The notes: a model not told the origin generated them from the letters alone. 64,000 nt of DNA from the human T2T-CHM13v2.0 reference genome, Homo sapiens (GCA_009914755.4 CP086569.2:61536001-61600000), one strand, 5' to 3'; counted from the first letter of the stretch, positions 1 to 32,030 are shown. Made by a program: numbers and translations.

Positions 1-3000
1 TACGGACTCCAATGGAATGGAATCGAATGGAAGGGAATCGAACGGAATGGACTCGAAGGGAAAAGACTGCAATGGAAAGGTCTCGAATGGAATGGAAATT
101 AATGGAATGGAATCGAATGAAATGGAGTCAAAAGGAATGGAATCGAATGGCAAGAAATCGAATGTAATGGAATCGCAAGGAATTGATGTGAACGGAACGG
201 AATGGAATGGAATCCAAAGGAATGGAATAGAATGGAATGGAATCGAATGGAAAGGACTCGAATGGAAATCACTCGAATAGAATGCAATTTAATAAAATAG
301 GATCAAATGTAATGGAATGGAATGGAAAGGAATCGAAACGAAAGGAATGGAGACAGATGGAATGGAATGGAACAGAGAGCAATGGTATAGAATGGAATGG
401 AATCATCTGGAATGGAATTGAATGGAATGGAATAATATGAAATGGAATGGAATGGAACGGAATAGAATGCCCTTGAATTAAATGGACTGGAATGGAATGG
501 ACTCGAACAGAGTGGAATGGAAAGTGTTGAGATAGAATGGAATGGACTCCTTTGGAATGGTGTAGTATGCAATGCAATCGACTGGCAGGGAATCAAAAGG
601 AATGTAATGGAATGGATTGGACTGGAATGCAATGGACTCGAATAGATTGGAAACGGAATGCAAAGGAATGGAATGGAATAGTATGGAATGGAATGGAAAG
701 GAATGGAGTGGAATAGACTAGAGTGGAATGGAATGGACTGGAAAGCAATGGACTGGAATGGAACTTTCTTGAATGGACTGGAATCAAACGGAATGGAATG
801 CAATGCAATCAAATGGCATGGAATAAAATAGAATGAAAGAGAATCAAATGGAATTGAATCGAATGGAATCGAATGGATTGGAAAGGAATAGAATGGAATG
901 GAATGGAATTGACTCAAATGGAATGGACTAGAATGGAATGGATTCGAATGGAAGGCAAAGGAATGGAATCTATTGGAATGGACTGTAATGGAATGGAATG
1001 GAAGGGATTGGAATGGACACGAATGGAATGGACTGCAATAGAAAGGATTCGAATGGAATGAAAAAGAATTGAATGGAATAGAACAGAATGGAATCAAATC
1101 GAATGAAATGGAATGGAAGAGAAAGGAATGGAATGAAATGGAATGGAAAGGATTCGAATGGAAAGGATTCGAATGGAATGCAATCGAATGGAATGCAATC
1201 GAATGGAATGGAATCGAACGGAATGGAATAAAATGGAAGAAAACTGGCAAGAAATGGAATCGAAATGAATGGAGTGTTATGGAACGGACTCAAAAGGAAT
1301 TGAATGTAATAGAATGGAGTGGAGTGGACTCGAATATAATGGACTGGAATGGAATGAAATCACATGGAATGGGAACGAATGGAATGGAATGGAAAGGAAT
1401 GGAATGGAATGGAACGGAATCGAATGGAAGGGAATGAAATTGAATCAACAGGAATGGAAGGGAATAGAATAGACGGTAATGGAATGGACTCGAATAGAAT
1501 GGACACGAATGCTCAAATTGAATGGACTCGAATGGAATGGAAACGAAAGGAATGTCATCGAATGGAATTGAATCGATTGGAATGAAATCGCATAGAATGG
1601 AGTGGAATCAAATGGAATTGAATCGAAAGGAAAGGAAGCGAATGGACTGAAATGAAATGGAATGGAATTGAATGGAAAGTAATGCAATGGAATAGAATGG
1701 AACGAAATTTCACGGAATGGAATCAAACTGAATGGAATCAAATCAATGGAATCAAATCAAATGGAATGGAAAGGAATTGAATGGAGTAGATTGGATTGGA
1801 TGGGATTGGAATGAAATGTACTGGAAAGGACTCGAATTTCATGAAACGGAATGGAATGAATTGGAACGGAATGGACTCGAATGGAATGGAATGTCATGGA
1901 ATGGCATCAAATGGAATGGCATCAAATGGAATGGAATCGAATGCAATGGAATGCTATGGAATGGAATGGAATGCATTGGAATGGAATGTCCTCTAATGGA
2001 ATGGATTCGAGTGGAATGGAATCGAATATAATGGAGTCGAATGAAATGGAATTGAAAGGAATGGGATCGAATACAATGGAATATACTGGAATGTAATGTA
2101 ATGAACTCGAATGTAATTGACTGGAATGGAATGTACATGAATGGAATGTAATCGAATGGAAAGTAATCCAATGGAATAGAATCTAATGCAATAAAATCGA
2201 CTCAGATAGAGTAGAATGTAATGGAATGGAGTGCAGTGCAATGGAATGGAATGGAATGGAATGCAATGGAATGGAATGGAATGGAATGGAATGGAATGGG
2301 ATGGGATGGAATGGTATGGAATGGATAGTAATGGACTGGAGTGAAATGGACTGGAAAGGAATGGACTCAAATTGAAAGGGCTCGAAAGGAATGGAGTCAA
2401 ATGGAATGGTCTGGAATGGAATGAACACGCATGTAATGCAATCCAATAGAATGGAATCGAATGGCATGGAATATAAAGAAATGGAATCGAAGAGAATGGA
2501 AACAAATGGAATGGAATTGAATGGAATGGAATTGAATGGAATGGGAACGAATGGAGTGAAATTGTATGCAGTAGAAGGGAATAGAATGGAATGCAAGTGA
2601 AAGGAAAGGAATGGATTGGAATGGAATGGAATTCATTGGAATGGAAGGGAATGTAGTGTAATGGACAGGCCTGGAATAAAGTGGAATGCTACGGTCTCGA
2701 ATGGAATAAAAATGTATGGAATGGAATGCAATGAAACGGAATCGAATGTCATAGAATGTAATGGAATGCAAAAAAATGGAATCCAAAATCATTGACTGGA
2801 AAGGCTGGGTGTCGAAAGGAATTGACTCCAATGGAATGGAATCGAATGGAATGGAAGTGAATAGAATCGAACTAAATCGAATGGAATGGAATTGATAGGA
2901 ACGGAATGGAAAGGAATGCAATGATTTGGCATGGAATGGAATCGAATGGCATCGAATGGAATGGAATGGAATGCAATGGAATGGAATGTATTAGAATGTA

Positions 3001-3584
3001 ATGAACTTTAATGGAATGTACTCGAATGGATTCGACTGGAATGGAATGTTCTGGAAGTGAATGGACTCCAATGGAATGGATTCAAAAGGAATGGAATCGT
3101 ACGGAATGGAATCTAATGGAATGGAATTAAATGGAAATGAATCAAATTGAATAGCACGGAATTGAATTGAATGGAATCGAATGCAATGGAATCAAATGAA
3201 ACGGAAAAGAAAGGAATGGAATGGAATGGAATGGGCTGGAATGGAAAGGAATCGAAACGAATGGAATGGAATCGAACTGAAGAGACTGGAATGGAATGCA
3301 CTGGAATGGAAGGGAGTGTAATGGAAGGTTCTCGAAAAAAATGGAATCGAATGGAATGGAATTGAATGGAACGGAATAGAGTCGAATGGAATTGAATGGA
3401 ATGGAATGGACTAGAGTGAAATGGAATCGAACCACAAGGAATGGACAGGAATAGAATGGTCTCGAATTGAATGGAATCGTATGGAATGGCATCAAACGGA
3501 ATGGAATGGACAGCCACGGAATGGAATGCACTCGAATGCAATGGAGTCGAAACTAATGGACTGGAATAGAATGGACTCGACTGG
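1..3584 (+). repeat. HOR unit 1 (type A), 3584 bp; carries two extra 15-bp (three-pentamer) duplications relative to units 4 and 7
   Basis: Runs from the anchor at position 1 to the next anchor at 3585. The type-A marker segment near 3171–3365 reads ...atcaaatgaaacggaaaagaaagg. The duplications ggaaaggattcgaat x2 and ggaatgcaatcgaat x2 lie at about 1141–1205. Confidence 0.85.
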
Positions 3585-6500
3585 TACGGACTCCAATGGA
3601 ATGGAATCGAATGGAAGGGAATCGATCGGAATGGACTCGAAGGGAAAAGACTGCAATGGAAAGGTCTCGAATGGAATGGAAATTAATGGAATGGAATGGA
3701 ATCGAATGAAATGGAGTCAAAAGGAATGGAATCGAATGGCAAGAAATCGAATGTAATGGAATCGCAAGGAATTGATGTGAACGGAACGGAATGGAATGGA
3801 ATCCAAAGGAATGGAATAGAATGGAATGGAATCGAATGGAAAGGACTCGAATGGAAATCACTCGAATAGAATGCAATTTAATAAAATAGGATCAAATGTA
3901 ATGGAATGGAATGGAAAGGAATCGAAACGAAAGGAATGGAGACAGATGGAATGGAATGGAACAGAGAGCAATGGTATAGAATGGAATGGAATCATCTGGA
4001 ATGGAATTGAATGGAATGGAATAATATGAAATGGAATGGAATGGAATGGAATGGAATGCCCTTGAATTAAATGGACTGGAATGGAATGGACTCGAACAGA
4101 GTGGAATGGAAAGTGTTGAGATAGAATGGAATGGACTCCTTTGGAATGGTGTAGTATGCAATGCAATCGACTGGCAGGGAATCAAAAGGAATGTAATGGA
4201 ATGGATTGGACTGGAATGCAATGGACTCGAATAGATTGGAAACGGAATGCAAAGGAATGGAATGGAATAGTATGGAATGGAATGGAAAGGAATGGAGTGG
4301 AATAGACTAGAGTGGAATGGAATGGACTGGAAAGCAATGGACTGGAATGGAACTTTCTTGAATGGACTGGAATCAAACGGAATGGAATGCAATGCAATCA
4401 AATGGCATGGAATAAAATAGAATGAAAGAGAATCAAATGGAATTGAATCGAATGGAGTCGAATGGATTGGAAAGGAATAGAATGGAATGGAATGGAATTG
4501 ACTCAAATGGAATGGACTAGAATGGAATGGATTCGAATGGAAGGCAAAGGAATGGAATCTATTGGAATGGACTGTAATGGAATGGAATGGAAGGGATTGG
4601 AATGGACTCGAATGGAATGGACTGCAATAGAAAGGATTCGAATGGAATGAAAAAGAATTGAATGGAATAGAACAGAATGGAATCAAATCGAATGAAATGG
4701 AATGGAATAGAAAGGAATGGAATGAAATGGAATGGAAAGGATTCGAATGGAATGCAATCGAATGGAATGGAATCGAACGGAATGGAATAAAATGGAAGAA
4801 AACTGGCAAGAAATGGAATCGAAATGAATGGAGTGTTATGGAACGGACTCAACAGGAATTGAATGTAATAGAATGGAGTGGAGTGGACTCGAATATAATG
4901 GACTGGAATGGAATGAAATCACATGGAATGGGAACGAATGGAATGGAATGGAAAGGAATGGAATCGAATGGAAAGGAATCGAATGGAAGGGAATGAAATT
5001 GAATCAACAGGAATGGAAGGGAATAGAATAGACGGTAATGGAATGGACTCGAATAGAATGGACACGAATGCTCAAATTGAATGGACTCGAATGGAATGGA
5101 AACGAAAGGAATGTCATCGAATGGAATTGAATCGATTGGAATGAAATCGCATAGAATGGAGTGGAATCAAATGGAATTGAATCGAAAGGAAAGGAAGCGA
5201 ATGGACTGAAATGAAATGGAATGGAATTGAATGGAAAGTAATGCAATGGAATAGAATGGAACGAAATTTCACGGAATGGAATCAAACTGAATGGAATCAA
5301 GTCAATGGAATCAAATCAAATGGAATGGAAAGGAATTGAATGGAGTACATTGGATTGGATGGGATTGGAATGAAATGTACTGGAAAGGACTCGAATTTCA
5401 CGAAACGGAATGGAATGAATTGGAACGGAATGGACTCGAATGGAATGGAATGTCATGGAATGGCATCAAATGGAATGGCATCAAATGGAATGGAATCGAA
5501 TGCAATGGAATGCTATGGAATGGAATGGAATGCATTGGAATGGAATGTCCTCTAATGGAATGGATTCGAGTGGAATGGAATCGAATATAATGGAGTTGAA
5601 TGAAATGGAATTGAAAGGAATGGGATCGAATACAATGGAATATACTGGAATGTAATATAATGAACTCGAATGTAATTGACTGGAATGGAATGTACATGAA
5701 TGGAATGTAATCGAATGGAAAGTAATCCAATGGAGTAGAATCTAATGCAATAAAATCGACTCAGATAGAGTAGAATGTAATGGAATGGAGTGCAGTGCAA
5801 TGGAATGGAATAGAATGGAATGCAATGGAATGGAATGGAAGGGAATGGAATGGAATGGAATGGAATGGAATTGGATGGGATGGAATGGTATGGAATGGAT
5901 AGTAATGGACTGGAGTGAAATGGACTGGAAAGGAATGGACTCAAATTGAAAGGGCTCGAAAGGAATGGAGTCAAATGGAATGGTCTGGAATGGAATGAAC
6001 ACGAATGTAATGCAATCCAATAGAAGGGAATCGAATGGCATGGAATATAAAGAAATGGAATCGAAGAGAATGGAAACAAATGGAATGGAATTGAATGGAA
6101 TGGAATTGAATGGAATGGGAACGAATGGAGTGAAATTGTATGCAGTAGAAGGGAATACAATGGAATGCAAGCGAAAGGAAAGGAATGGATTGGAATGGAA
6201 TGGAATTCATTGGAATGGAAGGGAATGTAGTGTAATGGACAGGCCTGGAATAATGTGGAATGCTACAGTCTCGAATGGAATAAAAATGTATGGAATGGAA
6301 TGCAATGAAACGGAATCGAATGTCATAGAATGTAATGGAATGCAAAAAAATGGAATCCAAAATCATTGACTGGAAAGGCTGGGTGTCGAAAGGAATTGAC
6401 TCCAATGGAATGGAATCGAATGGAATGGAAGTGAATAGAATCGAACTAAATCGAATGGAATGGAATTGATAGGAACGGAATGGAAAGGAATGCAATGATT

Positions 6501-7158
6501 TGGCATGGAATGGAATCGAATGGCATCGAATGGAATGGAATGGAATGCAATGGAATGGAATGTATTAGAATGTAATGAACTTTAATGGAATGTACTCGAA
6601 TGGATTCGACTGGAATGGAATGTTCTGGAAGTGAATGGACTCCAATGGAATGGATTCAAAAGGAATGGGATCGTACGGAATGGAATCTAATGGAATGGAA
6701 TTAAATGGAAATGAATCAAATTGAATACCACGGAATTGACTTGAATGGAATGGAATGCAATGGAATCTAATGAAACGGAAAGGAAAGGAATGGAATGGAA
6801 TGGAATGGGCTGGAATGGAAAGGAATCGAAACGAATGGAATGGAATCGAACTGAAGAGACTGGAATGGAATGCACTGGAATGGAAGGGAGTGTACTGGAA
6901 GGTTCTCGAAAATAATGGAATCGAATGGAATGGAATTGAATGGAACGGAATAGAGTCGAATGGAATTGAATGGAATGGAATGGACTAGAGTGAAATGGAA
7001 TCGAACCACAAGGAATGGACAGGAATAGAATGGTCTCGAATTGAATGGAATCGTATGGAATGGCATCAAACGGAATGGAATGGACAGCCACGGAATGGAA
7101 TGCACTCGAATGCAATGGAGCCGAAACTAATGGACTGGAATAGAATGGAATCGACTGG
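3585..7158 (+). repeat. HOR unit 2 (type B), 3574 bp
   Basis: Runs from anchor 3585 to anchor 7159. The type-B marker tgacttgaatggaatggaatgcaatggaatctaatgaaacgg is at about 6735–6780. The variant ggaataatgtgg is at about 6249. Confidence 0.85.
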
Positions 7159-10100
7159 TACGGACTCCAATGGAATGGAATCGAATGGAAGGGAATCGAA
7201 CGGAATGGACTCGAAGGGAAAAGACTGCAATGGAAAGGTCTCGAATGGAATGGAAATTAATGGAATGGAATGGAATCGAATGAAATGGAGTCAAAAGGAA
7301 TGGAATCGAATGGCAAGAAATCGAATGTAATGGAATCGCAAGGAATTGATGTGAACGGAACGGAATGGAATGGAATCCAAGGAATGGAATAGAATGGAAT
7401 GGAATCGAATGGAAAGGACTCGAATGGAAATCACTCGAATAGAATGCAATTTAATAAAATAGGATCAAATGTAATGGAATGGAATGGAAAGGAATCGAAA
7501 CGAAAGGAATGGAGACAGATGGAATGGAATGGAACAGAGAGCAATGGTATAGAATGGAATGGAATCATCTGGAATGGAATTGAATGGAATGGAATAATAT
7601 GAAATGGAATGGAATGGAATGGAATGGAATGCCCTTGAATTAAATGGACTGGAATGGACTGGACTCGAACAGAGTGGAATGGAAAGTGTTGAGATAGAAT
7701 GGAATGGACTCCTTTGGAATGGTGTAGTATGCAATGCAATCGACTGGCAGGGAATCAAAAGGAATGTAATCGAATGGATTGGACTGGAATGCAATGGACT
7801 CGAATAGATTGGAAACGGAATGCAAAGGAATGGAATGGAATAGTATGGAATGGAATGGAAAGGAATGGAGTGGAATAGACTAGAGTGGAATGGAATGGAC
7901 TGGAAAGCAATGGATTGGAATGGAACTTTCTTGAATGGACTGGAATCAAACGGAATGGAATGCAATGCAATCAAATGGCATGGAATAAAATAGAATGAAA
8001 GAGAATCAAATGGAATTGAATCGAATGGAATCGAATGGATTGGAGAGGAATAGAATGGAATGGAATGGAATTGACTCAAATGGAATGGACTAGAATGGAA
8101 TGGATTCGAATGGAAGGCAAAGGAATGGAATCTATTGGAATGGACTCTAATGGAATGGAATGGAAGGGATTGGAATGGACTCGAATGGAATGGACTGCAA
8201 TAGAAAGGATTCGAATGGAATGAAAAAGAATTGAATGGAATAGAACAGAATGGAATCAAATCGAATGAAATGGAATGGAATAGAAAGGAATGGAATGAAA
8301 TGGAATGGAAAGGATTCGAATGGAATGCAATCGAATGGAATGGAATCGAACGGAATGGAATAAAATGGAAGAAAACTGGCAAGAAATGGAATCGAAATGA
8401 ATGGAGTGTTATGGAACGGACTCAAAAGGAATTGAATGTAATAGAATGGAGTGGAGTGGACTCGAATATAATGGACTGGAATGGAATGAAATCACATGGA
8501 ATGGGAACGAATGGAATGGAATGGAAAGGAATGGAATCGAATGGAAAGGAATCGAATGGAAGGGAATGAAATTGAATCAACAGGAATGGAAGGGAATAGA
8601 ATAGACGGTAATGGAATGGACTCGAATAGAATGGACACGAATGCTCAAATTGAATGGACTCGAAAGGAATGGAAAGGAAAGGAATGTCATCGAATGGAAT
8701 TGAATCGATTGGAATGAAATCGCATAGAATGGAGTGGAATCAAATGGAATTGAATCGAAAGGAAAGGAAGCGAATGGACTGAAATGAAATGGAATGGAAT
8801 TGAATGGAAAGTAATGCAATGGAATAGAATGGAACGAAATTTCACGGAATGGAATCAAACTGAATGGAATCAAATCAATGGAATCAAATCAAATGGAATG
8901 GAAAGGAATTGAATGGAGTAGATTGGATTGGATGGGATTGGAATGAAATGTACTGGAAAGGACTCGAATTTCATGAAACGGAATGGAATGAATTGGAACG
9001 GAATGGACTCGAATGGAATGGAATGTCATGGAATGGCATCAAATGGAATGGCATCAAATGGAATGGAATCGAATGCAATGGAATGCTATGGAATGGAATG
9101 GAATGCATTGGAATGGAATGTCCTCTAATGGAATGGATTCGAGTGGAATGGAATCGAATATAATGGAGTCGAATGAAATGGAATTGAAAGGAATGGGATC
9201 GAATACAATGGAATATACTGGAATGTAATGTAATGAACTCGAATGTAATTGACTGGAATGGAATGTACATGAATGGAATGTAATCGAATGGAAAGTAATC
9301 CAATGGAATAGAATCTAATGCAATAAAATCGACTCAAATAGAGTAGAATGTAATGGAATGGAGTGCAGTGCAATGGAATGGAATGGAATGGAATGCAATG
9401 GAATGGAATGGAATGGAATGGAATGGGATGGAATGGTATGGAATGGATAGTAATGGACTGGAGTGAAATGGACTGGAAAGGAATGGACTCAAATTGAAAG
9501 GGCTCGAAAGGAATGGAGTCAAATGGAATGGTCTGGAATGGAATGAACACGAATGTAATGCAATCCAATAGAATGGAATCGAATGGCATGGAATATAAAG
9601 AAATGGAATCGAAGAGAATGGAAACAAATGGAGTGGAATTGAATGGAATGGAATTGATTGGAATGGGAACGAATGGAGTGAAATTGTATGCAGTAGAAGA
9701 GAATAGAATGGAATGCAAGCGAAAGGAATGGAATGGATTGGAATGGAATGGAATTCATTGGAATGGAAGGGAATGTAGTGTAATGGACAGGCCTGGAATA
9801 AAGTGGAATGCTACGGTCTCGAATGGAATAAAAATGTATGGAATGGAATGCAATGAAACGGAATCGAATGTCATAGAATGTAATGGAATGCAAAAAATGG
9901 AATCCAAAATCATTGACTGGAAAGGCTGGGTGTCGAAAGGAATTGACTCCAATGGAATGGAATCGAATGGAATGGAAGTGAATAGAATCGAACTAAATCG
10001 AATGGAATGGAATTGATAGGAACGGAATGGAAAGGAATGCAATGATTTGGCATGGAATGGAATCGAATGGCATCGAATGGAATGGAATGGAATGCAATGG

Positions 10101-10705
10101 AATGGAATGTGTTAGAATGTAATGAACTTTAATGGAATGTACTCGAATGGATTCGACTGGAATGGAATGTTCTGGAAGTGAATGGACTCCAATGGAATGG
10201 ATTCAAAAGGAATGGAATCGTACGGAATGGAATCTAATGGAATGGAATTAAATGGAAATGAATCAAATGGAATAGCACGGAATTGAATTGAATGGAATCG
10301 AATGCAATGGAATCTAATGAAACGGAAAGGAAAGGAATGGAATGGAATGGAATGGGCTGGAATGGAAAGGAATCGAAATGAATGGAATGGAATCGAACTG
10401 AAGAGACTGGAATGGAATGCACTGGAATGGAAGGGAGTGTAATGGAAGGTTCTCGAAAAAAATGGAATCGAATGGAATGGAATTGAATGGAACGGAATAG
10501 AGTCGAATGGAATTGAATGGAATGGAATGGACTAGAGTGAAATGGAATAGAACCACAAGGAATGGACAGGAATAGAATAGTCTCGAATTGAATGGAATCG
10601 TATGGAATGGCATCAAACGGAATGGAATGGATAGCCACGGAATGGAATGCACTCGAATGCAATGGAGTCGAAACTAATGGACTGGAATAGAATGGACTCG
10701 ACTGG
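7159..10705 (+). repeat. HOR unit 3 (type C), 3547 bp
   Basis: Runs from anchor 7159 to anchor 10706. Type-C markers are the 6-A run gcaaaaaatgg at about 9890 and ggatagccacgg at about 10630, where other unit types read ggacagccacgg. Confidence 0.85.
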
Positions 10706-13700
10706 TACGGACTCCAATGGAATGGAATCGAATGGAAGGGAATCGAATGGAATGGACTCGAAGGGAAAAGACTGCAATGGAAAGGTCTCGAATGGAATGG
10801 AAATTAATGGAATGGAATGGAATCGAATGAAATGGAGTCAAAAGGAATGGAATCGAATGGCAAGAAATCGAATGTAATGGAATCGCAAGGAATTGATGTG
10901 AACGGAACAGAATGGAATGGAATCCAAAGGAATGGAATAGAATGGAATGGAATCGAATGGAAAGGACTCGAATGGAAATCACTCGAATAGAATGCAATTT
11001 AATAAAATAGGATCAAATGTAATGGAATGGAATGGAAAGGAATCGAAACGAAAGGAATGGAGACAGATGGAATGGAATGGAACAGAGAGCAATGGTATAG
11101 AATGGAATGGAATCATCTGGAATGGAATTGAATGGAATGGAATAATATGAAATGGAATGGAATGGAATGGAATGGAATGCCCTTGAATTAAATGGACTGG
11201 AATGGAATGGACTCGAACAGAGTGGAATGGAAAGTGTTGAGATAGAATGGAATGGACTCCTTTGGAATGGTGTAGTATGCAATGCAATCGACTGGCAGGG
11301 AATCAAAAGGAATGTAATGGAATGGATTGGACTGGAATGCAATGGACTCGAATAGATTGGAAACGGAATGCAAAGGAATGGAATGGAATAGTATGGAATG
11401 GAATGGAAAGGAATGGAGTGGAATAGACTAGAGTGGAATGGAATGAACTGGAAAGCAATGGACTGGAATGGAACTTTCTTGAACGGACTGGAATCAAACG
11501 GAATGGAATGCAATGCAATCAAATGGCATGGAATAAAATAGAATGAAAGAGAATCAAATGGAATTGAATCGAATGGAATCGAATGGATTGGAAAGGAATA
11601 GAATGGAATGGAATGGAATTGACTCAAATGGAATGGACTAGAATGGAATTTATTCGAATGGAAGGCAAAGGAATGGAATCTATTGGAATGGACTGTAATG
11701 GAATGGAATGGAAGGGATTGGAATGGACTCGAATGGAATGGACTGCAATAGAAAGGATTCGAATGGAATGAAAAAGAATTGAATGGAATAGAACAGAATG
11801 GAATCAAATCGAATGAAATGGAATGGAATAGAAAGGAATGGAATGAAATGGAATGGAAAGGATTCGAATGGAATGCAATCGAATGGAATGGAATCGAACG
11901 GAATGGAATAAAATGGAAGAAAACTGGCAAGAAATGGAATCGAAATGAATGGAGTGTTATGGAACGGACTCAAAAGGAATTGAATGTAATAGAATGGAGT
12001 GGAGTGGACTCGAATATAATGGACTGGAATGGAATGAAATCACATGGAATGGGAACGAATGGAATGGAATGGAAAGGAATGGAATGGAATGGAAAGGAAT
12101 CGAATGGAAGGGAATGAAATTGAATCAACAGGAATGGAAGGGAATAGAATAGACGGTAATGGAATGGACTCGAATAGAATGGACACGAATGCTCAAATTG
12201 AATGGACTCGAAAGGAATGGAAAGGAAAGGAATGTGATCGAATGGAATTGAATCGATTGGAATGAAATCGCATAGAATGGAGTGGAATCAAATGGAATTG
12301 AATCGAAAGGAAAGGAAGCGAATGGACTGAAATGAAATGGAATGGAATTGAATGGAAATTAATGCAATGGAATAGAATGGAACGAAATTTCACGGAATGG
12401 AATCAAACTGAATGGAATCAAATCAATGGAATCTAATCAAATGGAATGGAAAGGAATTGAATGGAGTAGATTGGATTGGATGGGATTGGAATGAAATGTA
12501 CTGGAAAGGACTCGAATTTCATGAAACGGAATGGAATGAATTGGAACGGAATGGACTCGAATGGAATGGAATGTCATGGAATGGCATCAAATGGAATGGC
12601 ATCAAATGGAATGGAATCGAATGCAATGGAATGCTATGGAATGGAATGGAATGCATTGGAATGGAATGTCCTCTAATGGAATGGATTCGAGTGGAATGGA
12701 ATCGAATATAATGGAGTCGAATGAAATGGAATTGAAAGGAATGGGATCGAATACAATGGAATATACTGGAATGTAATGTAATGAACTCGAATGTAATTGA
12801 CTGGAATGGAATGTACATGAATGGAATGTAATCGAATGGAAAGTAATCCAATGGAATAGAATCTAATGCAATAAAATCGACTCAGATAGAGTAGAATGTA
12901 ATGGAATGGAGTGCAGTGGAATGGAATGGAATGGAATGGAATGCAATGGAATGGAATGGAATGGAATGGAATGGGATGGAATGGTATGGAATGGATAGTA
13001 ATGGACTGGAGTGAAATGGACTGGAAAGGAATGGACTCAAATTGAAAGGGCTCGAAAGGAATGGAGTCAAATGGAATGGTCTGGAATGGAATGAACACGA
13101 ATGTAATGCAATCCAATAGAATGGAATCGAATGGCATGGAATATAAAGAAATGGAATCGAAGAGAATGGAAACAAATGGAATGGAATTGAATGGAATGGA
13201 ATTGAATGGAATGGGAACGAATGGAGTGAAATTGTATGCAGTAGAAGAGAATAGAATGGAATGCAAGTGAAAGGAAAGGAATGGATTGGAATGGAATGGA
13301 ATTCATTGGAATGGAAGGGAATGTAGTGTAATGGACAGGCCTGGAATAAAGTGGAATGCTACGGTCTCGAATGGAATAAAAATGTATGGAATGGAATGCA
13401 ATGAAACGGAATCGAATGTCATAGAATGTAATGGAATGCAAAAAAATGGAATCCAAAATCATTGACTGGAAAGGCTGGGTGTCGAAAGGAATTGACTCCA
13501 ATGGAATGGAATCGAATGGAATGGAAGTGAATAGAATCGAACTAAATCGAATGGAATGGAATTGATAGGAACGGAATGGAAAGGAATGCAATGATTTGGC
13601 ATGGAATGGAATCGAATGGCATCGAATGGAATGGAATGGAATGCAATGGAATGGAATGTATTAGAATGTAATGAACTTTAATGGAATGTACTCGAATGGA

Positions 13701-20800: not shown

Positions 20801-21365
20801 ACTCGAATGGATTCGACTGGAATGGAATGTTCTGGAAGTGAATGGACTCCAATGGAATGGATTCAAAAGGAATGGAATCGTACGGAATGGAATCTAATGG
20901 AATGGAATTAAATGGAAATGAATCAAATGGAATAGCACGGAATTGAATTGAATGGAATCGAATGCAATGGAATCTAATGAAACGGAAAGGAAAGGAATGG
21001 AATGGAATGGAATGGGCTGGAATGGAAAGGAATCGAAATGAATGGAATGGAATCGAACTGAAGAGACTGGAATGGAATGCACTGGAATGGAAGGGAGTGT
21101 AATGGAAGGTTCTCGAAAAAAATGGAATCGAATGGAATGGAATTGAATGGAACGGAATAGAGTCGAATGGAATTGAATGGAATGGAATGGACTAGAGTGA
21201 AATGGAATAGAACCACAAGGAATGGACAGGAATAGAATAGTCTCGAATTGAATGGAATCGTATGGAATGGCATCAAACGGAATGGAATGGATAGCCACGG
21301 AATGGAATGCACTCGAATGCAATGGAGTCGAAACTAATGGACTGGAATAGAATGGACTCGACTGG
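17829..21365 (+). repeat. HOR unit 6 (type C), 3537 bp
   Basis: Runs from anchor 17829 to anchor 21366. The type-C marker gatagccacgg is at about 21290. Confidence 0.85.
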
Positions 21366-24300
21366 TACGGACTCCAATGGAATGGAATCGAATGGAAGGG
21401 AATCGAATGGAATGGACTCGAAGGGAAAAGACTGCAATGGAAAGGTCTCGAATGGAATGGAAATTAATGGAATGGAATGGAATCGAATGAAATGGAGTCA
21501 AAAGGAATGGAATCGAATGGCAAGAAATCGAATGTAATGGAATCGCAAGGAATTGATGTGAACGGAACAGAATGGAATGGAATCCAAAGGAATGGAATAG
21601 AATGGAATGGAATCGAATGGAAAGGACTCGAATGGAAATCACTCGAATAGAATGCAATTTAATAAAATAGGATCAAATGTAATGGAATGGAATGGAAAGG
21701 AATCGAAACGAAAGGAATGGAGACAGATGGAATGGAATGGAACAGAGAGCAATGGTATAGAATGGAATGGAATCATCTGGAATGGAATTGAATGGAATGG
21801 AATAATATGAAATGGAATGGAATGGAATGGAATGGAATGCCCTTGAATTAAATGGACTGGAATGGAATGGACTCGAACAGAGTGGAATGGAAAGTGTTGA
21901 GATAGAATGGAATGGACTCCTTTGGAATGGTGTAGTATGCAATGCAATCGACTGGCAGGGAATCAAAAGGAATGTAATGGAATGGATTGGACTGGAATGC
22001 AATGGACTCGAATAGATTGGAAACGGAATGCAAAGGAATGGAATGGAATAGTATGGAATGGAATGGAAAGGAATGGAGTGGAATAGACTAGAGTGGAATG
22101 GAATGAACTGGAAAGCAATGGACTGGAATGGAACTTTCTTGAACGGACTGGAATCAAACGGAATGGAATGCAATGCAATCAAATGGCATGGAATAAAATA
22201 GAATGAAAGAGAATCAAATGGAATTGAATCGAATGGAATCGAATGGATTGGAAAGGAATAGAATGGAATGGAATGGAATTGACTCAAATGGAATGGACTA
22301 GAATGGAATTTATTCGAATGGAAGGCAAAGGAATGGAATCTATTGGAATGGACTGTAATGGAATGGAATGGAAGGGATTGGAATGGACTCGAATGGAATG
22401 GACTGCAATAGAAAGGATTCGAATGGAATGAAAAAGAATTGAATGGAATAGAACAGAATGGAATCAAATCGAATGAAATGGAATGGAATAGAAAGGAATG
22501 GAATGAAATGGAATGGAAAGGATTCGAATGGAATGCAATCGAATGGAATGGAATCGAACGGAATGGAATAAAATGGAAGAAAACTGGCAAGAAATGGAAT
22601 CGAAATGAATGGAGTGTTATGGAACGGACTCAAAAGGAATTGAATGTAATAGAATGGAGTGGAGTGGACTCGAATATAATGGACTGGAATGGAATGAAAT
22701 CACATGGAATGGGAACGAATGGAATGGAATGGAAAGGAATGGAATGGAATGGAAAGGAATCGAATGGAAGGGAATGAAATTGAATCAACAGGAATGGAAG
22801 GGAATAGAATAGACGGTAATGGAATGGACTCGAATAGAATGGACACGAATGCTCAAATTGAATGGACTCGAAAGGAATGGAAAGGAAAGGAATGTGATCG
22901 AATGGAATTGAATCGATTGGAATGAAATCGCATAGAATGGAGTGGAATCAAATGGAATTGAATCGAAAGGAAAGGAAGCGAATGGACTGAAATGAAATGG
23001 AATGGAATTGAATGGAAATTAATGCAATGGAATAGAATGGAACGAAATTTCACGGAATGGAATCAAACTGAATGGAATCAAATCAATGGAATCTAATCAA
23101 ATGGAATGGAAAGGAATTGAATGGAGTAGATTGGATTGGATGGGATTGGAATGAAATGTACTGGAAAGGACTCGAATTTCATGAAACGGAATGGAATGAA
23201 TTGGAACGGAATGGACTCGAATGGAATGGAATGTCATGGAATGGCATCAAATGGAATGGCATCAAATGGAATGGAATCGAATGCAATGGAATGCTATGGA
23301 ATGGAATGGAATGCATTGGAATGGAATGTCCTCTAATGGAATGGATTCGAGTGGAATGGAATCGAATATAATGGAGTCGAATGAAATGGAATTGAAAGGA
23401 ATGGGATCGAATACAATGGAATATACTGGAATGTAATGTAATGAACTCGAATGTAATTGACTGGAATGGAATGTACATGAATGGAATGTAATCGAATGGA
23501 AAGTAATCCAATGGAATAGAATCTAATGCAATAAAATCGACTCAGATAGAGTAGAATGTAATGGAATGGAGTGCAGTGGAATGGAATGGAATGGAATGGA
23601 ATGCAATGGAATGGAATGGAATGGAATGGAATGGGATGGAATGGTATGGAATGGATAGTAATGGACTGGAGTGAAATGGACTGGAAAGGAATGGACTCAA
23701 ATTGCAAGGGCTCGAAAGGAATGGAGTCAAATGGAATGGTCTGGAATGGAATGAACACGAATGTAATGCAATCCAATAGAATGGAATCGAATGGCATGGA
23801 ATATAAAGAAATGGAATCGAAGAGAATGGAAACAAATGGAATGGAATTGAATGGAATGGAATTGAATGGAATGGGAACGAATGGAGTGAAATTGTATGCA
23901 GTAGAAGAGAATAGAATGGAATGCAAGTGAAAGGAAAGGAATGGATTGGAATGGAATGGAATTCATTGGAATGGAAGGGAATGTAGTGTAATGGACAGGC
24001 CTGGAATAAAGTGGAATGCTACGGTCTCGAATGGAATAAAAATGTATGGAATGGAATGCAATGAAACGGAATCGAATGTCATAGAATGTAATGGAATGCA
24101 AAAAAATGGAATCCAAAATCATTGACTGGAAAGGCTGGGTGTCGAAAGGAATTGACTCCAATGGAATGGAATCGAATGGAATGGAAGTGAATAGAATCGA
24201 ACTAAATCGAATGGAATGGAATTGATAGGAACGGAATGGAAAGGAATGCAATGATTTGGCATGGAATGGAATCGAATGGCATCGAATGGAATGGAATGGA

Positions 24301-24914
24301 ATGCAATGGAATGGAATGTATTAGAATGTAATGAACTTTAATGGAATGTACTCGAATGGATTCGACTGGAATGGAATGTTCTGGAAGTGAATGGACTCCA
24401 ATGGAATGGATTCAAAAGGAATGGAATCGTACGGAATGGAATCTAATGGAATGGAATTAAATGGAAATGAATCAAATTGAATAGCACGGAATTGAATTGA
24501 ATGGAATCGAATGCAATGGAATCAAATGAAACGGAAAAGAAAGGAATGGAATGGAATGGAATGGGCTGGAATGGAAAGGAATCGAAACGAATGGAATGGA
24601 ATCGAACTGAAGAGACTGGAATGGAATGCACTGGAATGGAAGGGAGTGTAATGGAAGGTTCTCGAAAAAAATGGAATCGAATGGAATGGAATTGAATGGA
24701 ACGGAATAGAGTCGAATGGAATTGAATGGAATGGAATGGACTAGAGTGAAATGGAATCGAACCACAAGGAATGGACAGGAATAGAATGGTCTCGAATTGA
24801 ATGGAATCGTATGGAATGGCATCAAACGGAATGGAATGGACAGCCACGGAATGGAATGCACTCGAATGCAATGGAGTCGAAACTAATGGACTGGAATAGA
24901 ATGGACTCGACTGG
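21366..24914 (+). repeat. HOR unit 7 (type A), 3549 bp
   Basis: Runs from anchor 21366 to anchor 24915. The type-A marker is at 24501–24695. Confidence 0.85.
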
Positions 24915-27900
24915 TACGGACTCCAATGGAATGGAATCGAATGGAAGGGAATCGATCGGAATGGACTCGAAGGGAAAAGACTGCAATGGAAAGGTCTCGA
25001 ATGGAATGGAAATTAATGGAATGGAATGGAATCGAATGAAATGGAGTCAAAAGGAATGGAATCGAATGGCAAGAAATCGAATGTAATGGAATCGCAAGGA
25101 ATTGATGTGAACGGAACGGAATGGAATGGAATCCAAAGGAATGGAATAGAATGGAATGGAATCGAATGGAAAGGACTCGAATGGAAATCACTCGAATAGA
25201 ATGCAATTTAATAAAATAGGATCAAATGTAATGGAATGGAATGGAAAGGAATCGAAACGAAAGGAATGGAGACAGATGGAATGGAATGGAACAGAGAGCA
25301 ATGGTATAGAATGGAATGGAATCATCTGGAATGGAATTGAATGGAATGGAATAATATGAAATGGAATGGAATGGAATGGAATGGAATGCCCTTGAATTAA
25401 ATGGACTGGAATGGAATGGACTCGAACAGAGTGGAATGGAAAGTGTTGAGATAGAATGGAATGGACTCCTTTGGAATGGTGTAGTATGCAATGCAATCGA
25501 CTGGCAGGGAATCAAAAGGAATGTAATCGAATGGATTGGACTGGAATGCAATGGACTCGAATAGATTGGAAACGGAATGCAAAGGAATGGAATGGAATAG
25601 TATGGAATGGAATGGAAAGGAATGGAGTGGAATAGACTAGAGTGGAATGGAATGGACTGGAAAGCAATGGACTGGAATGGAACTTTCTTGAATGGACTGG
25701 AATCAAACGGAATGGAATGCAATGCAATCAAATGGCATGGAATAAAATAGAATGAAAGAGAATCAAATGGAATTGAATCGAATGGAGTCGAATGGATTGG
25801 AAAGGAATAGAATGGAATGGAATGGAATTGACTCAAATGGAATGGACTAGAATGGAATGGATTCGAATGGAAGGCAAAGGAATGGAATCTATTGGAATGG
25901 ACTGTAATGGAATGGAATGGAAGGGATTGGAATGGACTCGAATGGAATGGACTGCAATAGAAAGGATTCGAATGGAATGAAAAAGAATTGAATGGAATAG
26001 AACAGAATGGAATCAAATCGAATGAAATGGAATGGAATAGAAAGGAATGGAATGAAATGGAATGGAAAGGATTCGAATGGAATGCAATCGAATGGAATGG
26101 AATCGAACGGAATGGAATAAAATGGAAGAAAACTGGCAAGAAATGGAATCGAAATGAATGGAGTGTTATGGAACGGACTCAACAGGAATTGAATGTAATA
26201 GAATGGAGTGGAGTGGACTCGAATATAATGGACTGGAATGGAATGAAATCACATGGAATGGGAACGAATGGAATGGAATGGAAAGGAATGGAATCGAATG
26301 GAAAGGAATCGAATGGAAGGGAATGAAATTGAATCAACAGGAATGGAAGGGAATAGAATAGACGGTAATGGAATGGACTCGAATAGAATGGACACGAATG
26401 CTCAAATTGAATGGACTCGAATGGAATGGAAACGAAAGGAATGTCATCGAATGGAATTGAATCGATTGGAATGAAATCGCATAGAATGGAGTGGAATCAA
26501 ATGGAATTGAATCGAAAGGAAAGGAAGCGAATGGACTGAAATGAAATGGAATGGAATTGAATGGAAAGTAATGCAATGGAATAGAATGGAACGAAATTTC
26601 ACGGAATGGAATCAAACTGAATGGAATCAAGTCAATGGAATCAAATCAAATGGAATGGAAAGGAATTGAATGGAGTACATTGGATTGGATGGGATTGGAA
26701 TGAAATGTACTGGAAAGGACTCGAATTTCACGAAACGGAATGGAATGAATTGGAACGGAATGGACTCGAATGGAATGGAATGTCATGGAATGGCATCAAA
26801 TGGAATGGCATCAAATGGAATGGAATCGAATGCAATGGAATGCTATGGAATGGAATGGAATGCATTGGAATGGAATGTCCTCTAATGGAATGGATTCGAG
26901 TGGAATGGAATCGAATATAATGGAGTTGAATGAAATGGAATTGAAAGGAATGGGATCGAATACAATGAAATATACTGGAATGTAATATAATGAACTCGAA
27001 TGTAATTGACTGGAATGGAATGTACATGAATGGAATGTAATCGAATGGAAAGTAATCCAATGGAGTAGAATCTAATGCAATAAAATCGACTCAGATAGAG
27101 TAGAATGTAATGGAATGGAGTGCAGTGCAATGGAATGGAATAGAATGGAATGCAATGGAATGGAATGGAAGGGAATGGAATGGAATGGAATGGAATGGAA
27201 TTGGATGGGATGGAATGGTATGGAATGGATAGTAATGGACTGGAGTGAAATGGACTGGAAAGGAATGGACTCAAATTGAAAGGGCTCGAAAGGAATGGAG
27301 TCAAATGGAATGGTCTGGAATGGAATGAACACGAATGTAATGCAATCCAATAGAAGGGAATCGAATGGCATGGAATATAAAGAAATGGAATCGAAGAGAA
27401 TGGAAACAAATGGAATGGAATTGAATGGAATGGAATTGAATGGAATGGGAACGAATGGAGTGAAATTGTATGCAGTAGAAGGGAATACAATGGAATGCAA
27501 GCGAAAGGAAAGGAATGGATTGGAATGGAATGGAATTCATTGGAATGGAAGGGAATGTAGTGTAATGGACAGGCCTGGAATAATGTGGAATGCTACAGTC
27601 TCGAATGGAATAAAAATGTATGGAATGGAATGCAATGAAACGGAATCGAATGTCATAGAATGTAATGGAATGCAAAAAAATGGAATCCAAAATCATTGAC
27701 TGGAAAGGCTGGGTGTCGAAAGGAATTGACTCCAATGGAATGGAATCGAATGGAATGGAAGTGAATAGAATCGAACTAAATCGAATGGAATGGAATTGAT
27801 AGGAACGGAATGGAAAGGAATGCAATGATTTGGCATGGAATGGAATCGAATGGCATCGAATGGAATGGAATGGAATGCAATGGAATGGAATGTATTAGAA

Positions 27901-28488
27901 TGTAATGAACTTTAATGGAATGTACTCGAATGGATTCGACTGGAATGGAATGTTCTGGAAGTGAATGGACTCCAATGGAATGGATTCAAAAGGAATGGGA
28001 TCGTACGGAATGGAATCTAATGGAATGGAATTAAATGGAAATGAATCAAATTGAATAGCACGGAATTGACTTGAATGGAATGGAATGCAATGGAATCTAA
28101 TGAAACGGAAAGGAAAGGAATGGAATGGAATGGAATGGGCTGGAATGGAAAGGAATCGAAACGAATGGAATGGAATCGAACTGAAGAGACTGGAATGGAA
28201 TGCACTGGAATGGAAGGGAGTGTACTGGAAGGTTCTCGAAAATAATGGAATCGAATGGAATGGAATTGAATGGAACGGAATAGAGTCGAATGGAATTGAA
28301 TGGAATGGAATGGACTAGAGTGAAATGGAATCGAACCACAAGGAATGGACAGGAATAGAATGGTCTCGAATTGAATGGAATCGTATGGAATGGCATCAAA
28401 CGGAATGGAATGGACAGCCACGGAATGGAATGCACTCGAATGCAATGGAGTCGAAACTAATGGACTGGAATAGAATGGAATCGACTGG
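24915..28488 (+). repeat. HOR unit 8 (type B), 3574 bp
   Basis: Runs from anchor 24915 to anchor 28489. The type-B marker is at 28085–28318. Confidence 0.85.
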
Positions 28489-31400
28489 TACGGACTCCAA
28501 TGGAATGGAATCGAATGGAAGGGAATCGAACGGAATGGACTCGAAGGGAAAAGACTGCAATGGAAAGGTCTCGAATGGAATGGAAATTAATGGAATGGAA
28601 TGGAATCGAATGAAATGGAGTCAAAAGGAATGGAATCGAATGGCAAGAAATCGAATGTAATGGAATCGCAAGGAATTGATGTGAACGGAACGGAATGGAA
28701 TGGAATCCAAGGAATGGAATAGAATGGAATGGAATCGAATGGAAAGGACTCGAATGGAAATCACTCGAATAGAATGCAATTTAATAAAATAGGATCAAAT
28801 GTAATGGAATGGAATGGAAAGGAATCGAAACGAAAGGAATGGAGACAGATGGAATGGAATGGAACAGAGAGCAATGGTATAGAATGGAATGGAATCATCT
28901 GGAATGGAATTGAATGGAATGGAATAATATGAAATGGAATGGAATGGAATGGAATGGAATGCCCTTGAATTAAATGGACTGGAATGGACTGGACTCGAAC
29001 AGAGTGGAATGGAAAGTGTTGAGATAGAATGGAATGGACTCCTTTGGAATGGTGTAGTATGCAATGCAATCGACTGGCAGGGAATCAAAAGGAATGTAAT
29101 CGAATGGATTGGACTGGAATGCAATGGACTCGAATAGATTGGAAACGGAATGCAAAGGAATGGAATGGAATAGTATGGAATGGAATGGAAAGGAATGGAG
29201 TGGAATAGACTAGAGTGGAATGGAATGGACTGGAAAGCAATGGACTGGAATGGAACTTTCTTGAATGGACTGGAATCAAACGGAATGGAATGCAATGCAA
29301 TCAAATGGCATGGAATAAAATAGAATGAAAGAGAATCAAATGGAATTGAATCGAATGGAATCGAATGGATTGGAGAGGAATAGAATGGAATGGAATGGAA
29401 TTGACTCAAATGGAATGGACTAGAATGGAATGGATTCGAATGGAAGGCAAAGGAATGGAATCTATTGGAATGGACTCTAATGGAATGGAATGGAAGGGAT
29501 TGGAATGGACTCGAATGGAATGGACTGCAATAGAAAGGATTCGAATGGAATGAAAAAGAATTGAATGGAATAGAACAGAATGGAATCAAATCGAATGAAA
29601 TGGAATGGAATAGAAAGGAATGGAATGAAATGGAATGGAAAGGATTCGAATGGAATGCAATCGAATGGAATGGAATCGAACGGAATGGAATAAAATGGAA
29701 GAAAACTGTCAAGAAATGGAATCGAAATGAATGGAGTGTTATGGAACGGACTCAAAAGGAATTGAATGTAATAGAATGGAGTGGAGTGGACTCGAATATA
29801 ATGGACTGGAATGGAATGAAATCACATGGAATGGGAACGAATGGAATGGAATGGAAAGGAATGGAATCGAATGGAAAGGAATCGAATGGAAGGGAATGAA
29901 ATTGAATCAACAGGAATGGAAGGGAATAGAATAGACGGTAATGGAATGGACTCGAATAGAATGGACACGAATGCTCAAATTGAATGGACTCGAAAGGAAT
30001 GGAAAGGAAAGGAATGTCATCGAATGGAATTGAATCGATTGGAATGAAATCGCATAGAATGGAGTGGAATCAAATGGAATTGAATCGAAAGGAAAGGAAG
30101 CGAATGGACTGAAATGAAATGGAATGGAATTGAATGGAAAGTAATGCAATGGAATAGAATGGAACGAAATTTCACGGAATGGAATCAAACTGAATGGAAT
30201 CAAATCAATGGAATCAAATCAAATGGAATGGAAAGGAATTGAATGGAGTAGATTGGATTGGATGGGATTGGAATGAAATGTACTGGAAAGGACTCGAATT
30301 TCATGAAACGGAATGGAATGAATTGGAACGGAATGGACTCGAATGGAATGGAATGTCATGGAATGGCATCAAATGGAATGGCATCAAATGGAATGGAATC
30401 GAATGCAATGGAATGCTATGGAATGGAATGGAATGCATTGGAATGGAATGTCCTCTAATGGAATGGATTCGAGTGGAATGGAATCGAATATAATGGAGTC
30501 GAATGAAATGGAATTGAAAGGAATGGGATCGAATACAATGGAATATACTGGAATGTAATGTAATGAACTCGAATGTAATTGACTGGAATGGAATGTACAT
30601 GAATGGAATGTAATCGAATGGAAAGTAATCCAATGGAATAGAATCTAATGCAATAAAATCGACTCAAATAGAGTAGAATGTAATGGAATGGAGTGCAGTG
30701 CAATGGAATGGAATGGAATGGAATGCAATGGAATGGAATGGAATGGAATGGGATGGAATGGTATGGAATGGATAGTAATGGACTGGAGTGAAATGGACTG
30801 GAAAGGAATGGACTCAAATTGAAAGGGCTCGAAAGGAATGGAGTCAAATGGAATGGTCTGGAATGGAATGAACACGAATGTAATGCAATCCAATAGAATG
30901 GAATCGAATGGCATGGAATATAAAGAAATGGAATCGAAGAGAATGGAAACAAATGGAGTGGAATTGAATGGAATGGAATTGATTGGAATGGGAACGAATG
31001 GAGTGAAATTGTATGCAGTAGAAGAGAATAGAATGGAATGCAAGCGAAAGGAATGGAATGGATTGGAATGGAATGGAATTCATTGGAATGGAAGGGAATG
31101 TAGTGTAATGGACAGGCCTGGAATAAAGTGGAATGCTACGGTCTCGAATGGAATAAAAATGTATGGAATGGAATGCAATGAAACGGAATCGAATGTCATA
31201 GAATGTAATGGAATGCAAAAAATGGAATCCAAAATCATTGACTGGAAAGGCTGGGTGTCGAAAGGAATTGACTCCAATGGAATGGAATCGAATGGAATGG
31301 AAGTGAATAGAATCGAACTAAATCGAATGGAATGGAATTGATAGGAACGGAATGGAAAGGAATGCAATGATTTGGCATGGAATGGAATCGAATGGCATCG

Positions 31401-32030
31401 AATGGAATGGAATGGAATGCAATGGAATGGAATGTGTTAGAATGTAATGAACTTTAATGGAATGTACTCGAATGGATTCGACTGGAATGGAATGTTCTGG
31501 AAGTGAATGGACTCCAATGGAATGGATTCAAAAGGAATGGAATCGTACGGAATGGAATCTAATGGAATGGAATTAAATGGAAATGAATCAAATGGAATAG
31601 CACGGAATTGAATTGAATGGAATCGAATGCAATGGAATCTAATGAAACGGAAAGGAAAGGAATGGAATGGAATGGAATGGGCTGGAATGGAAAGGAATCG
31701 AAATGAATGGAATGGAATCGAACTGAAGAGACTGGAATGGAATGCACTGGAATGGAAGGGAGTGTAATGGAAGGTTCTCGAAAAAAATGGAATCGAATGG
31801 AATGGAATTGAATGGAACGGAATAGAGTCGAATGGAATTGAATGGAATGGAATGGACTAGAGTGAAATGGAATAGAACCACAAGGAATGGACAGGAATAG
31901 AATAGTCTCGAATTGAATGGAATCGTATGGAATGGCATCAAACGGAATGGAATGGATAGCCACGGAATGGAATGCACTCGAATGCAGTGGAGTCGAAACT
32001 AATGGACTGGAATAGAATGGACTCGACTGG
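28489..32030 (+). repeat. HOR unit 9 (type C), 3542 bp
   Basis: Runs from anchor 28489 to anchor 32031. The type-C marker gatagccacgg is at about 31955. Confidence 0.85.

What the first reader, a model, noticed from the sequence alone, without database searches (positions are those of the whole stretch)
1..32030. Third-tier organisation: three tandem copies of a three-unit (A-B-C) super-repeat of ~10.66 kb
Adjacent 3.55 kb units differ at dozens of diagnostic positions. Examples are type-A ...atcaaatgaaacggaaaagaaagg, type-B tgacttgaatggaatggaatgc plus ggaataatgtgg, and type-C gatagccacgg plus a 6-A run. Units three apart are nearly identical. Markers repeat at 10,660–10,670 bp spacing (3171 / 13841 / 24501; 6755 / 17425 / 28085; 10647 / 21307 / 31972; 12193 / 22853 / 33518). 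Unit lengths also follow the pattern: B is 3574 bp in all three copies. This implies the array was amplified recently in ~10.7 kb blocks rather than unit by unit. Such nested HORs are incompletely catalogued for HSat3.
Basis: seen in the sequence. Interest (0 to 1): 0.6.

Follow-up and report, generated by a model that had tools for sequence, protein, structure and literature searches.

The report
Local triplication inside Y-chromosome DYZ1 satellite
The window is ordinary human Y-chromosome DYZ1 (HSat3A6) satellite in which one 10.66-kb stretch of three neighbouring 3.55-kb units was recently copied to three tandem copies by out-of-register recombination, which is a real but expected local event and not a new level of organisation.

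Summary
The 10.66-kb periodicity is real. Units 2/5/8, 3/6/9 and 4/7 differ by 1–8 events, against 31–49 between types.

The coordinates are shifted. The repeated block is 2579–34573 (copies of 10,670, 10,660 and 10,665 bp; 99.9% identical), not 1–32030. Unit 1 belongs only through its last 1,006 bp, and unit 10 through its first 2,543 bp. Units 4 and 7 are hybrids: they carry unit-10 alleles up to alignment column 2613 and unit-1 alleles from column 2633. That single switch within 19 bp is the signature of unequal homologous exchange between units three apart.

Both ends of the block lie inside the window. The other units show no three-unit periodicity, so this is a local triplication, not an array-wide third tier.

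The sequence is DYZ1/HSat3A6:
- the published subfamily-specific 24-mer occurs 32 times;
- each unit has one HaeIII and one EcoRI site;
- GC is 38.8%, with one CpG per 36 bp.

The differences among copies are almost all private singletons. At the published Yq12 mutation rate this implies roughly 1,000 generations. Unequal-exchange expansions in Yq12 and hyper-local periodicity in HSat arrays are already described. Low interest.

The parts
1..2578 (+). Left flank: the first 2,578 bp of unit 1. It is outside the triplication.
   Evidence: 23 differences from the homologous part of U4, all at or before alignment column 2613. Lag-3 edit distance is at background level in chunks 1-2001.
2579..13248 (+). 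Copy 1 of the 10.66-kb block (10,670 bp): tail of U1, then B (3585-7158), C (7159-10705) and the head of hybrid unit U4.
   Evidence: It differs from copy 2 by 8 substitutions and 2 indels, and from copy 3 by 9 substitutions and 1 indel.
13249..23908 (+). Copy 2 (10,660 bp): tail of U4, then B (14255-17828), C (17829-21365) and the head of hybrid unit U7.
   Evidence: It has 5 private substitutions, a private 15-bp deletion and a private 5-bp insertion.
23909..34573 (+). Copy 3 (10,665 bp): tail of U7, then B (24915-28488), C (28489-32030) and the head of U10.
   Evidence: It has 6 private substitutions and a private 5-bp deletion.
13249..13267 (+). Crossover interval in hybrid unit U4, where unit-10-type head joins unit-1-type tail.
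   Evidence: U1 and U10 differ at 35 sites. U4 carries the U10 allele at 24 of 26 sites up to column 2613 and the U1 allele at 9 of 9 sites from column 2633. The two exceptions are private to U10.
23909..23927 (+). The same junction, copied into hybrid unit U7.
   Evidence: U7 shows the same allele pattern as U4. U4 and U7 differ at one base only.
34574..35579 (+). Right flank: the last 1,006 bp of U10. It is outside the triplication.
   Evidence: 9 differences from the U7 tail between columns 2633 and 3249, against 3 in the 2.5 kb before them.
35580..64000 (+). The remaining DYZ1 units (U11 to the partial U18). They show no three-unit periodicity.
   Evidence: Pairwise identities are 98.1-99.3%. 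A, B and C alleles are nearly absent. There is no lag-3 signal.

Best explanation
The window is human Y-chromosome long-arm heterochromatin. It is DYZ1 (HSat3A6), a (GGAAT)n-derived satellite with nested 3.55-kb units that are about 98-99% alike.

Within it, four neighbouring units with ordinary private mutations took part in an out-of-register homologous exchange. Call them P, B, C and S; P is today's U1 and S is today's U10. The exchange was most simply between sister chromatids. Unit S paired with unit P three units away, and the crossover fell in a 19-bp interval at unit alignment columns 2613-2633. This duplicated a 10.66-kb segment and made a hybrid unit with S head and P tail.

A second misaligned exchange between the two new copies, soon afterwards, gave three copies. 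Since then each copy has gained a handful of private mutations, over roughly 10^3 generations.

What is shown: the three copies, their exact extent, the hybrid junction and the star-like pattern of differences. What is inferred: the mechanism (sister-chromatid exchange as against a replication-based route), the order of events and the date. No function is implied. This is the normal turnover process of the array caught at small scale.
For: Identity as DYZ1/HSat3A6:
- The published HSat3A6-specific 24-mer occurs 32 times. The marker 24-mers of the other 13 HSat2/3 subfamilies occur 0 times.
- Each unit has one HaeIII site and one EcoRI site. Full-unit fragments are 3,533-3,579 bp. The published value is ~3.5-3.6 kb, with 3,569 bp the modal HaeIII fragment.
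- GC is 38.8% with one CpG per 35.9 bp. The published figures are 38% and one per 35 bp.
- Independent DYZ1 contigs are 99.5-99.9% identical to the window consensus.

Triplication:
- The three copies are 10,670, 10,660 and 10,665 bp and differ pairwise by 8-11 substitutions and 1-3 indels.
- The lag-3 scan gives the same boundaries.
- Clade bootstraps are 99-100%.

Unequal exchange:
- Hybrid units U4 and U7 show a single allele switch between columns 2613 and 2633.
- Unit lengths add up: 2,543 + 1,006 = 3,549 bp.

Rapid succession, then drift:
- 16 of 17 variable sites are private derived singletons, and none is clearly shared-derived.

The A, B and C alleles are rare private variants:
- They are unseen at 47 of 53 events in about 136 kb of external DYZ1.
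- They occur 0 times in 41 external copies of a 110-bp diagnostic segment.

Published context:
- Yq12 evolves by unequal exchange, and sister-chromatid exchanges are seen there.
- The Yq12 mutation rate is 3.86e-7 per bp per generation. With 14 private substitutions over 31,995 bp this gives about 1,100 generations.
Against: - Location on the Y chromosome could not be tested directly, because no human assembly is available to the tools. Altemose 2014 lists a minor chr7 location for HSat3A6.
- The star-like pattern fits a single replication-based event making three copies just as well as it fits two exchanges.
- The date depends on the rate. At the euchromatic Y rate (0.76e-9 per site per year) it would be about 0.6 Myr.
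- Read-level support for the assembly of this stretch could not be examined.
Confidence: 0.85

Rival explanations
1. A genuine third tier of organisation: the DYZ1 array, or a large part of it, is built from a 3-unit (10.66-kb) super-repeat. The window shows its best-preserved stretch.
For: The strongest k-mer lags are 10,660, 10,670 and 21,330 bp. Repeat periodicity is known to vary locally in HSat arrays.
Against: There are exactly 3.0 copies with both ends inside the window. Flanking units carry 0-4 of the 14, 25 and 15 type alleles, with no phase preference. The type alleles are unseen in about 136 kb of external DYZ1. The peak height comes only from the near-identity of three copies.
Confidence: 0.04
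2. A one-step replication-based triplication, for example break-induced replication with template switching or replication slippage across three units, rather than two successive crossovers.
For: The three copies form a star, with 3, 7 and 7 private events and no clearly shared-derived site. A single junction type is present twice.
Against: Nothing in the sequence separates this from two quick exchanges. The junction is perfectly homologous and in register, as expected for homologous exchange, with no inserted or microhomology-only joint. Sister-chromatid exchanges are directly observed in Yq12.
Confidence: 0.2
3. An assembly artefact: a false expansion of a repeat by the assembler.
For: Yq12 is among the hardest regions to assemble. 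No reads are available to check.
Against: The copies differ at 17 sites, including three indels in multiples of 5 bp. The differences are private to each copy, which is not what a duplicated consensus would give. The junction has a clean recombinant structure.
Confidence: 0.04
4. Homogenisation by long-tract gene conversion among pre-existing units, with no change in copy number.
For: Interlocus gene conversion is frequent in Yq12. A ~3-kb near-identical tract at a lag of two units exists elsewhere in the window.
Against: It would need two conversions of 10.66 kb each, with identical end points and exactly a three-unit offset. The tract length equals the lag times (copies - 1), which is what tandem duplication predicts.
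Confidence: 0.03

Closest known systems
DYZ1 / HSat3A6 satellite of human Yq12 (Nakahori 1986; Altemose 2014; Rhie 2023; Hallast 2023)
   Same: Pentamer-derived composition, ~3.55-kb nested unit, one HaeIII site per unit, the HSat3A6 marker 24-mer, GC and CpG density, and >98% identity between units (papers).
   Different: Nothing at the family level. This stretch carries a local 3 x 10.66-kb expansion.
Recent iterative tandem duplications and smaller-scale expansions and deletions in T2T-Y Yq12 (Rhie et al., Extended Data Fig. 8)
   Same: The same process, unequal exchange, acting on the same arrays.
   Different: The events described there run up to 5 Mb or were illustrated for HSat1B/DYZ2. 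This one is 10.66 kb, inside a DYZ1 block, and its crossover is resolved to 19 bp.
Nested tandem repeats (NTRs) with hyper-local periodicity changes in HSat2/3 (Altemose et al., NTRprism)
   Same: A local change of the dominant period within one array.
   Different: Only three copies are present. This is a nascent expansion, not an established period.
Alpha-satellite HOR-haplotype local expansions and nested duplications (for example DXZ1 in T2T-CHM13)
   Same: Blocks of several repeat units amplified together, giving near-identical multi-unit copies.
   Different: A different satellite family and chromosome, with no centromere function.

Membership tests
DYZ1 / HSat3A6 | Derived from the (CATTC/GGAAT)n pentamer | tested here: met
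   There are 4,286 exact GGAAT on the + strand, 33% of all bases, and 1 on the other strand.
DYZ1 / HSat3A6 | Nested tandem unit of about 3.5-3.6 kb | tested here: met
   16 full units are 3,537-3,584 bp. The published values are ~3.5-3.6 kb.
DYZ1 / HSat3A6 | One HaeIII site per unit, giving the classical ~3.5-kb fragment | tested here: met
   Full-unit HaeIII fragments are 3,533-3,579 bp. One unit is shortened to 2,918 bp by a deletion, and three units carry an extra site. Hallast's modal fragment is 3,569 bp.
DYZ1 / HSat3A6 | Subfamily-specific 24-mer TCGTTTCGATTCCTTTCCATTCCA (Altemose 2014, Table 1) | tested here: met
   It has 32 exact matches. The marker 24-mers of the other 13 subfamilies have 0 (source).
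DYZ1 / HSat3A6 | GC about 38% and about one CpG per 35 bp | tested here: met
   GC is 38.8%, with one CpG per 35.9 bp, matching the published figures.
DYZ1 / HSat3A6 | Male-specific location in Yq12, interspersed with DYZ2 blocks | not testable with these tools
   No human assembly is available, and the window holds no DYZ2. From memory, the classical Y-specific PCR primers Y1.1 and Y1.2 match exactly 13 and 14 times with a 154-bp spacing. I could not verify the primer sequences in the paper library.
Array-wide higher-order (third-tier) repeat of 10.66 kb | The period persists over many copies, so flanking units fall into the same types in phase | tested here: not met
   There are three copies only, and both edges lie in the window. 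Flanking units lack the type alleles.
Array-wide higher-order (third-tier) repeat of 10.66 kb | Units i and i+3 are more alike than units i and i+1 | tested here: met
   This holds only within 2579-34573: 1-8 events against 31-49.
Tandem duplication by unequal homologous exchange | A hybrid junction unit with a single switch between the two parental units | tested here: met
   24 of 26 sites are U10-like up to column 2613, and 9 of 9 are U1-like from column 2633.
Tandem duplication by unequal homologous exchange | A whole number of copies in the same phase at both ends, in register | tested here: met
   The boundaries are 2579, 13249, 23909 and 34574.
Tandem duplication by unequal homologous exchange | A reciprocal deletion product or intermediate copy numbers in related chromosomes | not testable with these tools
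   This needs other Y assemblies.

The most novel reading that the evidence does not exclude
The 10.66-kb triplet is the first stage of a new nested period taking hold in a DYZ1 block. If so, further copies exist elsewhere in the same array or in related Y lineages, and it serves as a haplogroup-specific structural marker. Its base-resolved crossover point would then allow direct measurement of the register and tract preferences of sister-chromatid exchange in Yq12.
Probability: 0.1. Interest if true: 0.3.

Novelty: already known. Interest (0 to 1): 0.13.

Why it matters
It matters little beyond housekeeping. The finding is a clean, base-resolved example of how satellite arrays expand: three units copied together, with the crossover pinned to 19 bp and a rough age of 10^3 generations. 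That illustrates the unequal-exchange model already accepted for Yq12. It could serve as a lineage marker if genotyped across Y assemblies. It does not reveal a new level of organisation or any function.

Tried and rejected
- Self-BLAST of the window returned only two culled HSPs and was useless.
- The repeat finder was swamped by pentamer-level families and gave no unit-level information. It found no inverted repeats of 1.5 kb or more.
- Two lag scans with Biopython end-gap settings failed: in one the end gaps were penalised, in the other the score was trivially zero. I replaced them with my own Sellers semi-global edit-distance scan.
- Literature search for the classical DYZ1 PCR primers found nothing, so that match stays a recollection.
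- The Rfam gathering search gave 0 hits.
- The ~305-aa ORFs on the minus strand, one per unit, are (HSIPF)n-like translations of CATTC and not genes.
- A metagenome scan for the B-type marker gave 0 hits. A scan with a generic neighbouring anchor gave 38 loci, none carrying A, B or C alleles.
- I considered and rejected an array-wide HOR tier, long-tract conversion and assembly artefact (see rival explanations).

Full report
**What the window is.** The whole 64 kb is one strand-pure (GGAAT)n-derived satellite. Exact GGAAT makes up 33% of the + strand and occurs once on the other strand. GC is 38.8%, with one CpG per 35.9 bp. It is organised in units of about 3.55 kb that start at 1, 3585, 7159, 10706, 14255, 17829, 21366, 24915, 28489, 32031, 35580, 39129, 45626, 49173, 52742, 56301, 59865 and 63415.

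Each unit has one EcoRI and one HaeIII site. Full-unit fragments are 3,533-3,579 bp. The most common HSat3A6-specific 24-mer published by Altemose et al. 2014 (PMC4022460, read) occurs 32 times. The marker 24-mers of the other 13 HSat2/3 subfamilies do not occur at all.

Unit size, the HaeIII pattern, GC content and CpG density all match the descriptions of DYZ1/HSat3A6 in the T2T-Y and 43-Y papers. Units are 98.1-99.3% identical outside the special block, in line with the '>98%' reported for Yq12.

Short contigs in 'bacterial' assemblies and metagenomes carry the same sequence at up to 99.9% identity. That fits the human-Y HSat3 contamination of databases reported by the T2T-Y authors. Direct placement on the Y chromosome could not be tested with these tools.

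**Checking the observation.** The 10.66-kb signal is real. K-mer lags of 10,660, 10,670, 10,665 and 21,330 bp are among the strongest in the window. Unit B is 3,574 bp in all three copies.

In a MAFFT alignment of the 16 full-length units:
- U2/U5/U8 are 99.89-99.92% identical;
- U3/U6/U9 are 99.77-99.89% identical;
- U4/U7 are 99.97% identical;
- different types are 98.6-99.1% identical.

This corresponds to 1-8 against 31-49 difference events. NJ bootstrap is 100% for each of these groups.

The predicted 1/4/7 clade fails. U1 against U4 is 99.32%, and the clade has 1% bootstrap support. U10 joins U4/U7 instead, at 99%.

**True extent.** U1 differs from U4 at 23 places. All lie at or before alignment column 2613 (window 2578), and the last 1,006 bp are identical. 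U10 differs from U7 at only 3 places before column 2633, and at 9 places from there on. The repeated segment is therefore 2579-34573: three copies of 10,670, 10,660 and 10,665 bp.

A scan that does not use the alignment gives the same limits. It takes the semi-global edit distance of each 500-bp chunk to its best match k units downstream.
- For k=3 the distance is 0-5 from chunk 2501 to chunk 23501, apart from the two chunks that hold the 15-bp indel (12 and 15). Most chunks score 0-2.
- For k=6 it is 0-1 from chunk 2501 to 12501, apart from the chunk holding a 5-bp indel (5).
- Elsewhere the distances are at background level.

Units outside the block carry 0-4 of the 14, 25 and 15 type-specific alleles, with no phase preference. 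The three-unit period does not extend in either direction.

**How it arose.** U1 and U10 differ at 35 sites. U4 and U7 carry the U10 allele at 24 of the 26 sites up to column 2613. The two exceptions are alleles private to U10. U4 and U7 carry the U1 allele at all 9 sites from column 2633 on.

That single switch lies within 19 bp (window 13249-13267, copied again at 23909-23927). It is what an unequal homologous crossover predicts: the unit now called U10 paired with the unit now called U1, three units out of register. The product keeps U1 intact on the left and U10 intact on the right, with a hybrid unit of U10 head and U1 tail between them. Unit lengths agree: 2,543 + 1,006 = 3,549 bp. A second misaligned exchange between the two copies gives three.

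The three copies differ pairwise by 8-11 substitutions and 1-3 indels of 5 or 15 bp. I polarised the differences against the other units. Of 17 variable sites, 16 are private to one copy, and none is clearly shared-derived. The copies therefore arose close together in time and then drifted apart.

Private events per copy are:

| Copy | Substitutions | Indels |
|---|---|---|
| 1 | 3 (one of them ambiguous) | 0 |
| 2 | 5 | 2 |
| 3 | 6 | 1 |

That is 14 private substitutions over 31,995 bp. With the pedigree-based Yq12 rate of 3.86e-7 per bp per generation (PMC12240836), the age is about 1,100 generations. The Poisson range is roughly 600-1,900. This is an inference. At the euchromatic Y rate quoted the age would be about 0.6 Myr.

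Two of the substitutions are reversions of a B-type allele to the array consensus (column 2619 in U5, column 3195 in U8). The ratio of transitions to transversions is 6:8. Both fit the interlocus gene conversion reported for Yq12.

**The A, B and C units.** These are not established subfamilies. In about 136 kb of external DYZ1 from 48 contaminant contigs, the type-specific allele is unseen at 11 of 13 A events, 22 of 25 B events and 14 of 15 C events. The alternative allele is typically seen 20-40 times. In a 110-bp segment holding four diagnostic sites, none of 41 external copies carries any A, B or C allele. They are three ordinary neighbouring units, each with private mutations, that happened to be copied together.

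**Comparison with what is known.**
- The T2T-Y paper reports recent iterative tandem duplications, smaller-scale expansions and deletions in Yq12, and observed sister-chromatid exchanges there. It attributes the patterns to unequal exchange.
- Altemose et al. introduced nested tandem repeats for HSat2/3. [quoted passage not shown]
- Hallast et al. describe homogenisation within DYZ1 arrays.

The present feature is a small, well-resolved instance of this known process in a known satellite. I rate it as already known in kind. The specific 3 x 10.66-kb event is probably not described individually, but it is not surprising.

**Rivals.** I considered four alternatives.
- An array-wide third tier is contradicted by the two visible edges and by the flanking units.
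- Long-tract conversion without copy gain would need two 10.66-kb conversions with identical ends.
- An assembly artefact is unlikely given the ordered private variants, but it cannot be excluded without reads.
- A one-step replication-based triplication cannot be told apart from two quick crossovers by sequence alone.

**Verdict.** The period and the markers are right; the coordinates and the membership of unit 1 are wrong. Block-wise recent amplification is correct, but this is not a new organisational tier.

Noticed in passing
window ~42474 (HaeIII/EcoRI fragment 41791-44709): A 645-bp deletion, exactly 129 pentamers, spans a unit boundary (consensus positions 3326 to 413 of the next unit). 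It leaves a 2,918-bp fragment among ~3.55-kb ones.
   Followed up: partly
window 45674, 49221, 52790: Three consecutive units (U13-U15) share an extra HaeIII site at unit position 49. It splits their fragments into 965 bp plus about 2.59 kb, a small local variant cluster.
   Followed up: no
window ~44500-47500 versus ~51600-54600: A second mosaic. U13 and U15 are nearly identical over about 3 kb at a lag of two units: 4 differences in alignment columns 1-2285 against 21 after, with NJ bootstrap 98%. The tract is shorter than the lag, so it is more likely a gene-conversion tract or an eroded older duplication than a tandem duplication.
   Followed up: partly
loci L001-L048, for example L001 (BMRF01000076.1, Actinomadura cremea), L010 (CAYVXY010000078.1), L018/L019 (BNJT01001888.1): DYZ1 sequence at up to 99.9% identity sits in 10 contigs of GTDB 'bacterial/archaeal' assemblies and in 38 stretches of metagenome contigs. 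These include one-unit-long collapsed contigs and a 55-kb metagenome contig with several units. This is human male DNA contamination, as already reported by the T2T-Y authors.
   Followed up: partly
window 16828 (U5) and 28058 (U8): Two of the differences among the three copies are reversions of a B-type allele to the array consensus, which makes them candidate short gene conversions from other units. Overall 6 transitions against 8 transversions.
   Followed up: no
window minus strand, for example 3892-4809: ORFs of about 305 aa recur once per unit on the CATTC strand. The translation is low-complexity (HSIPF)n-like and is a by-product of the pentamer, not a gene.
   Followed up: yes
window 56301-59864 (U16): U16 is the most divergent unit in the window, at 98.1-98.65% to all others. 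Its start anchor carries 2 mismatches.
   Followed up: no
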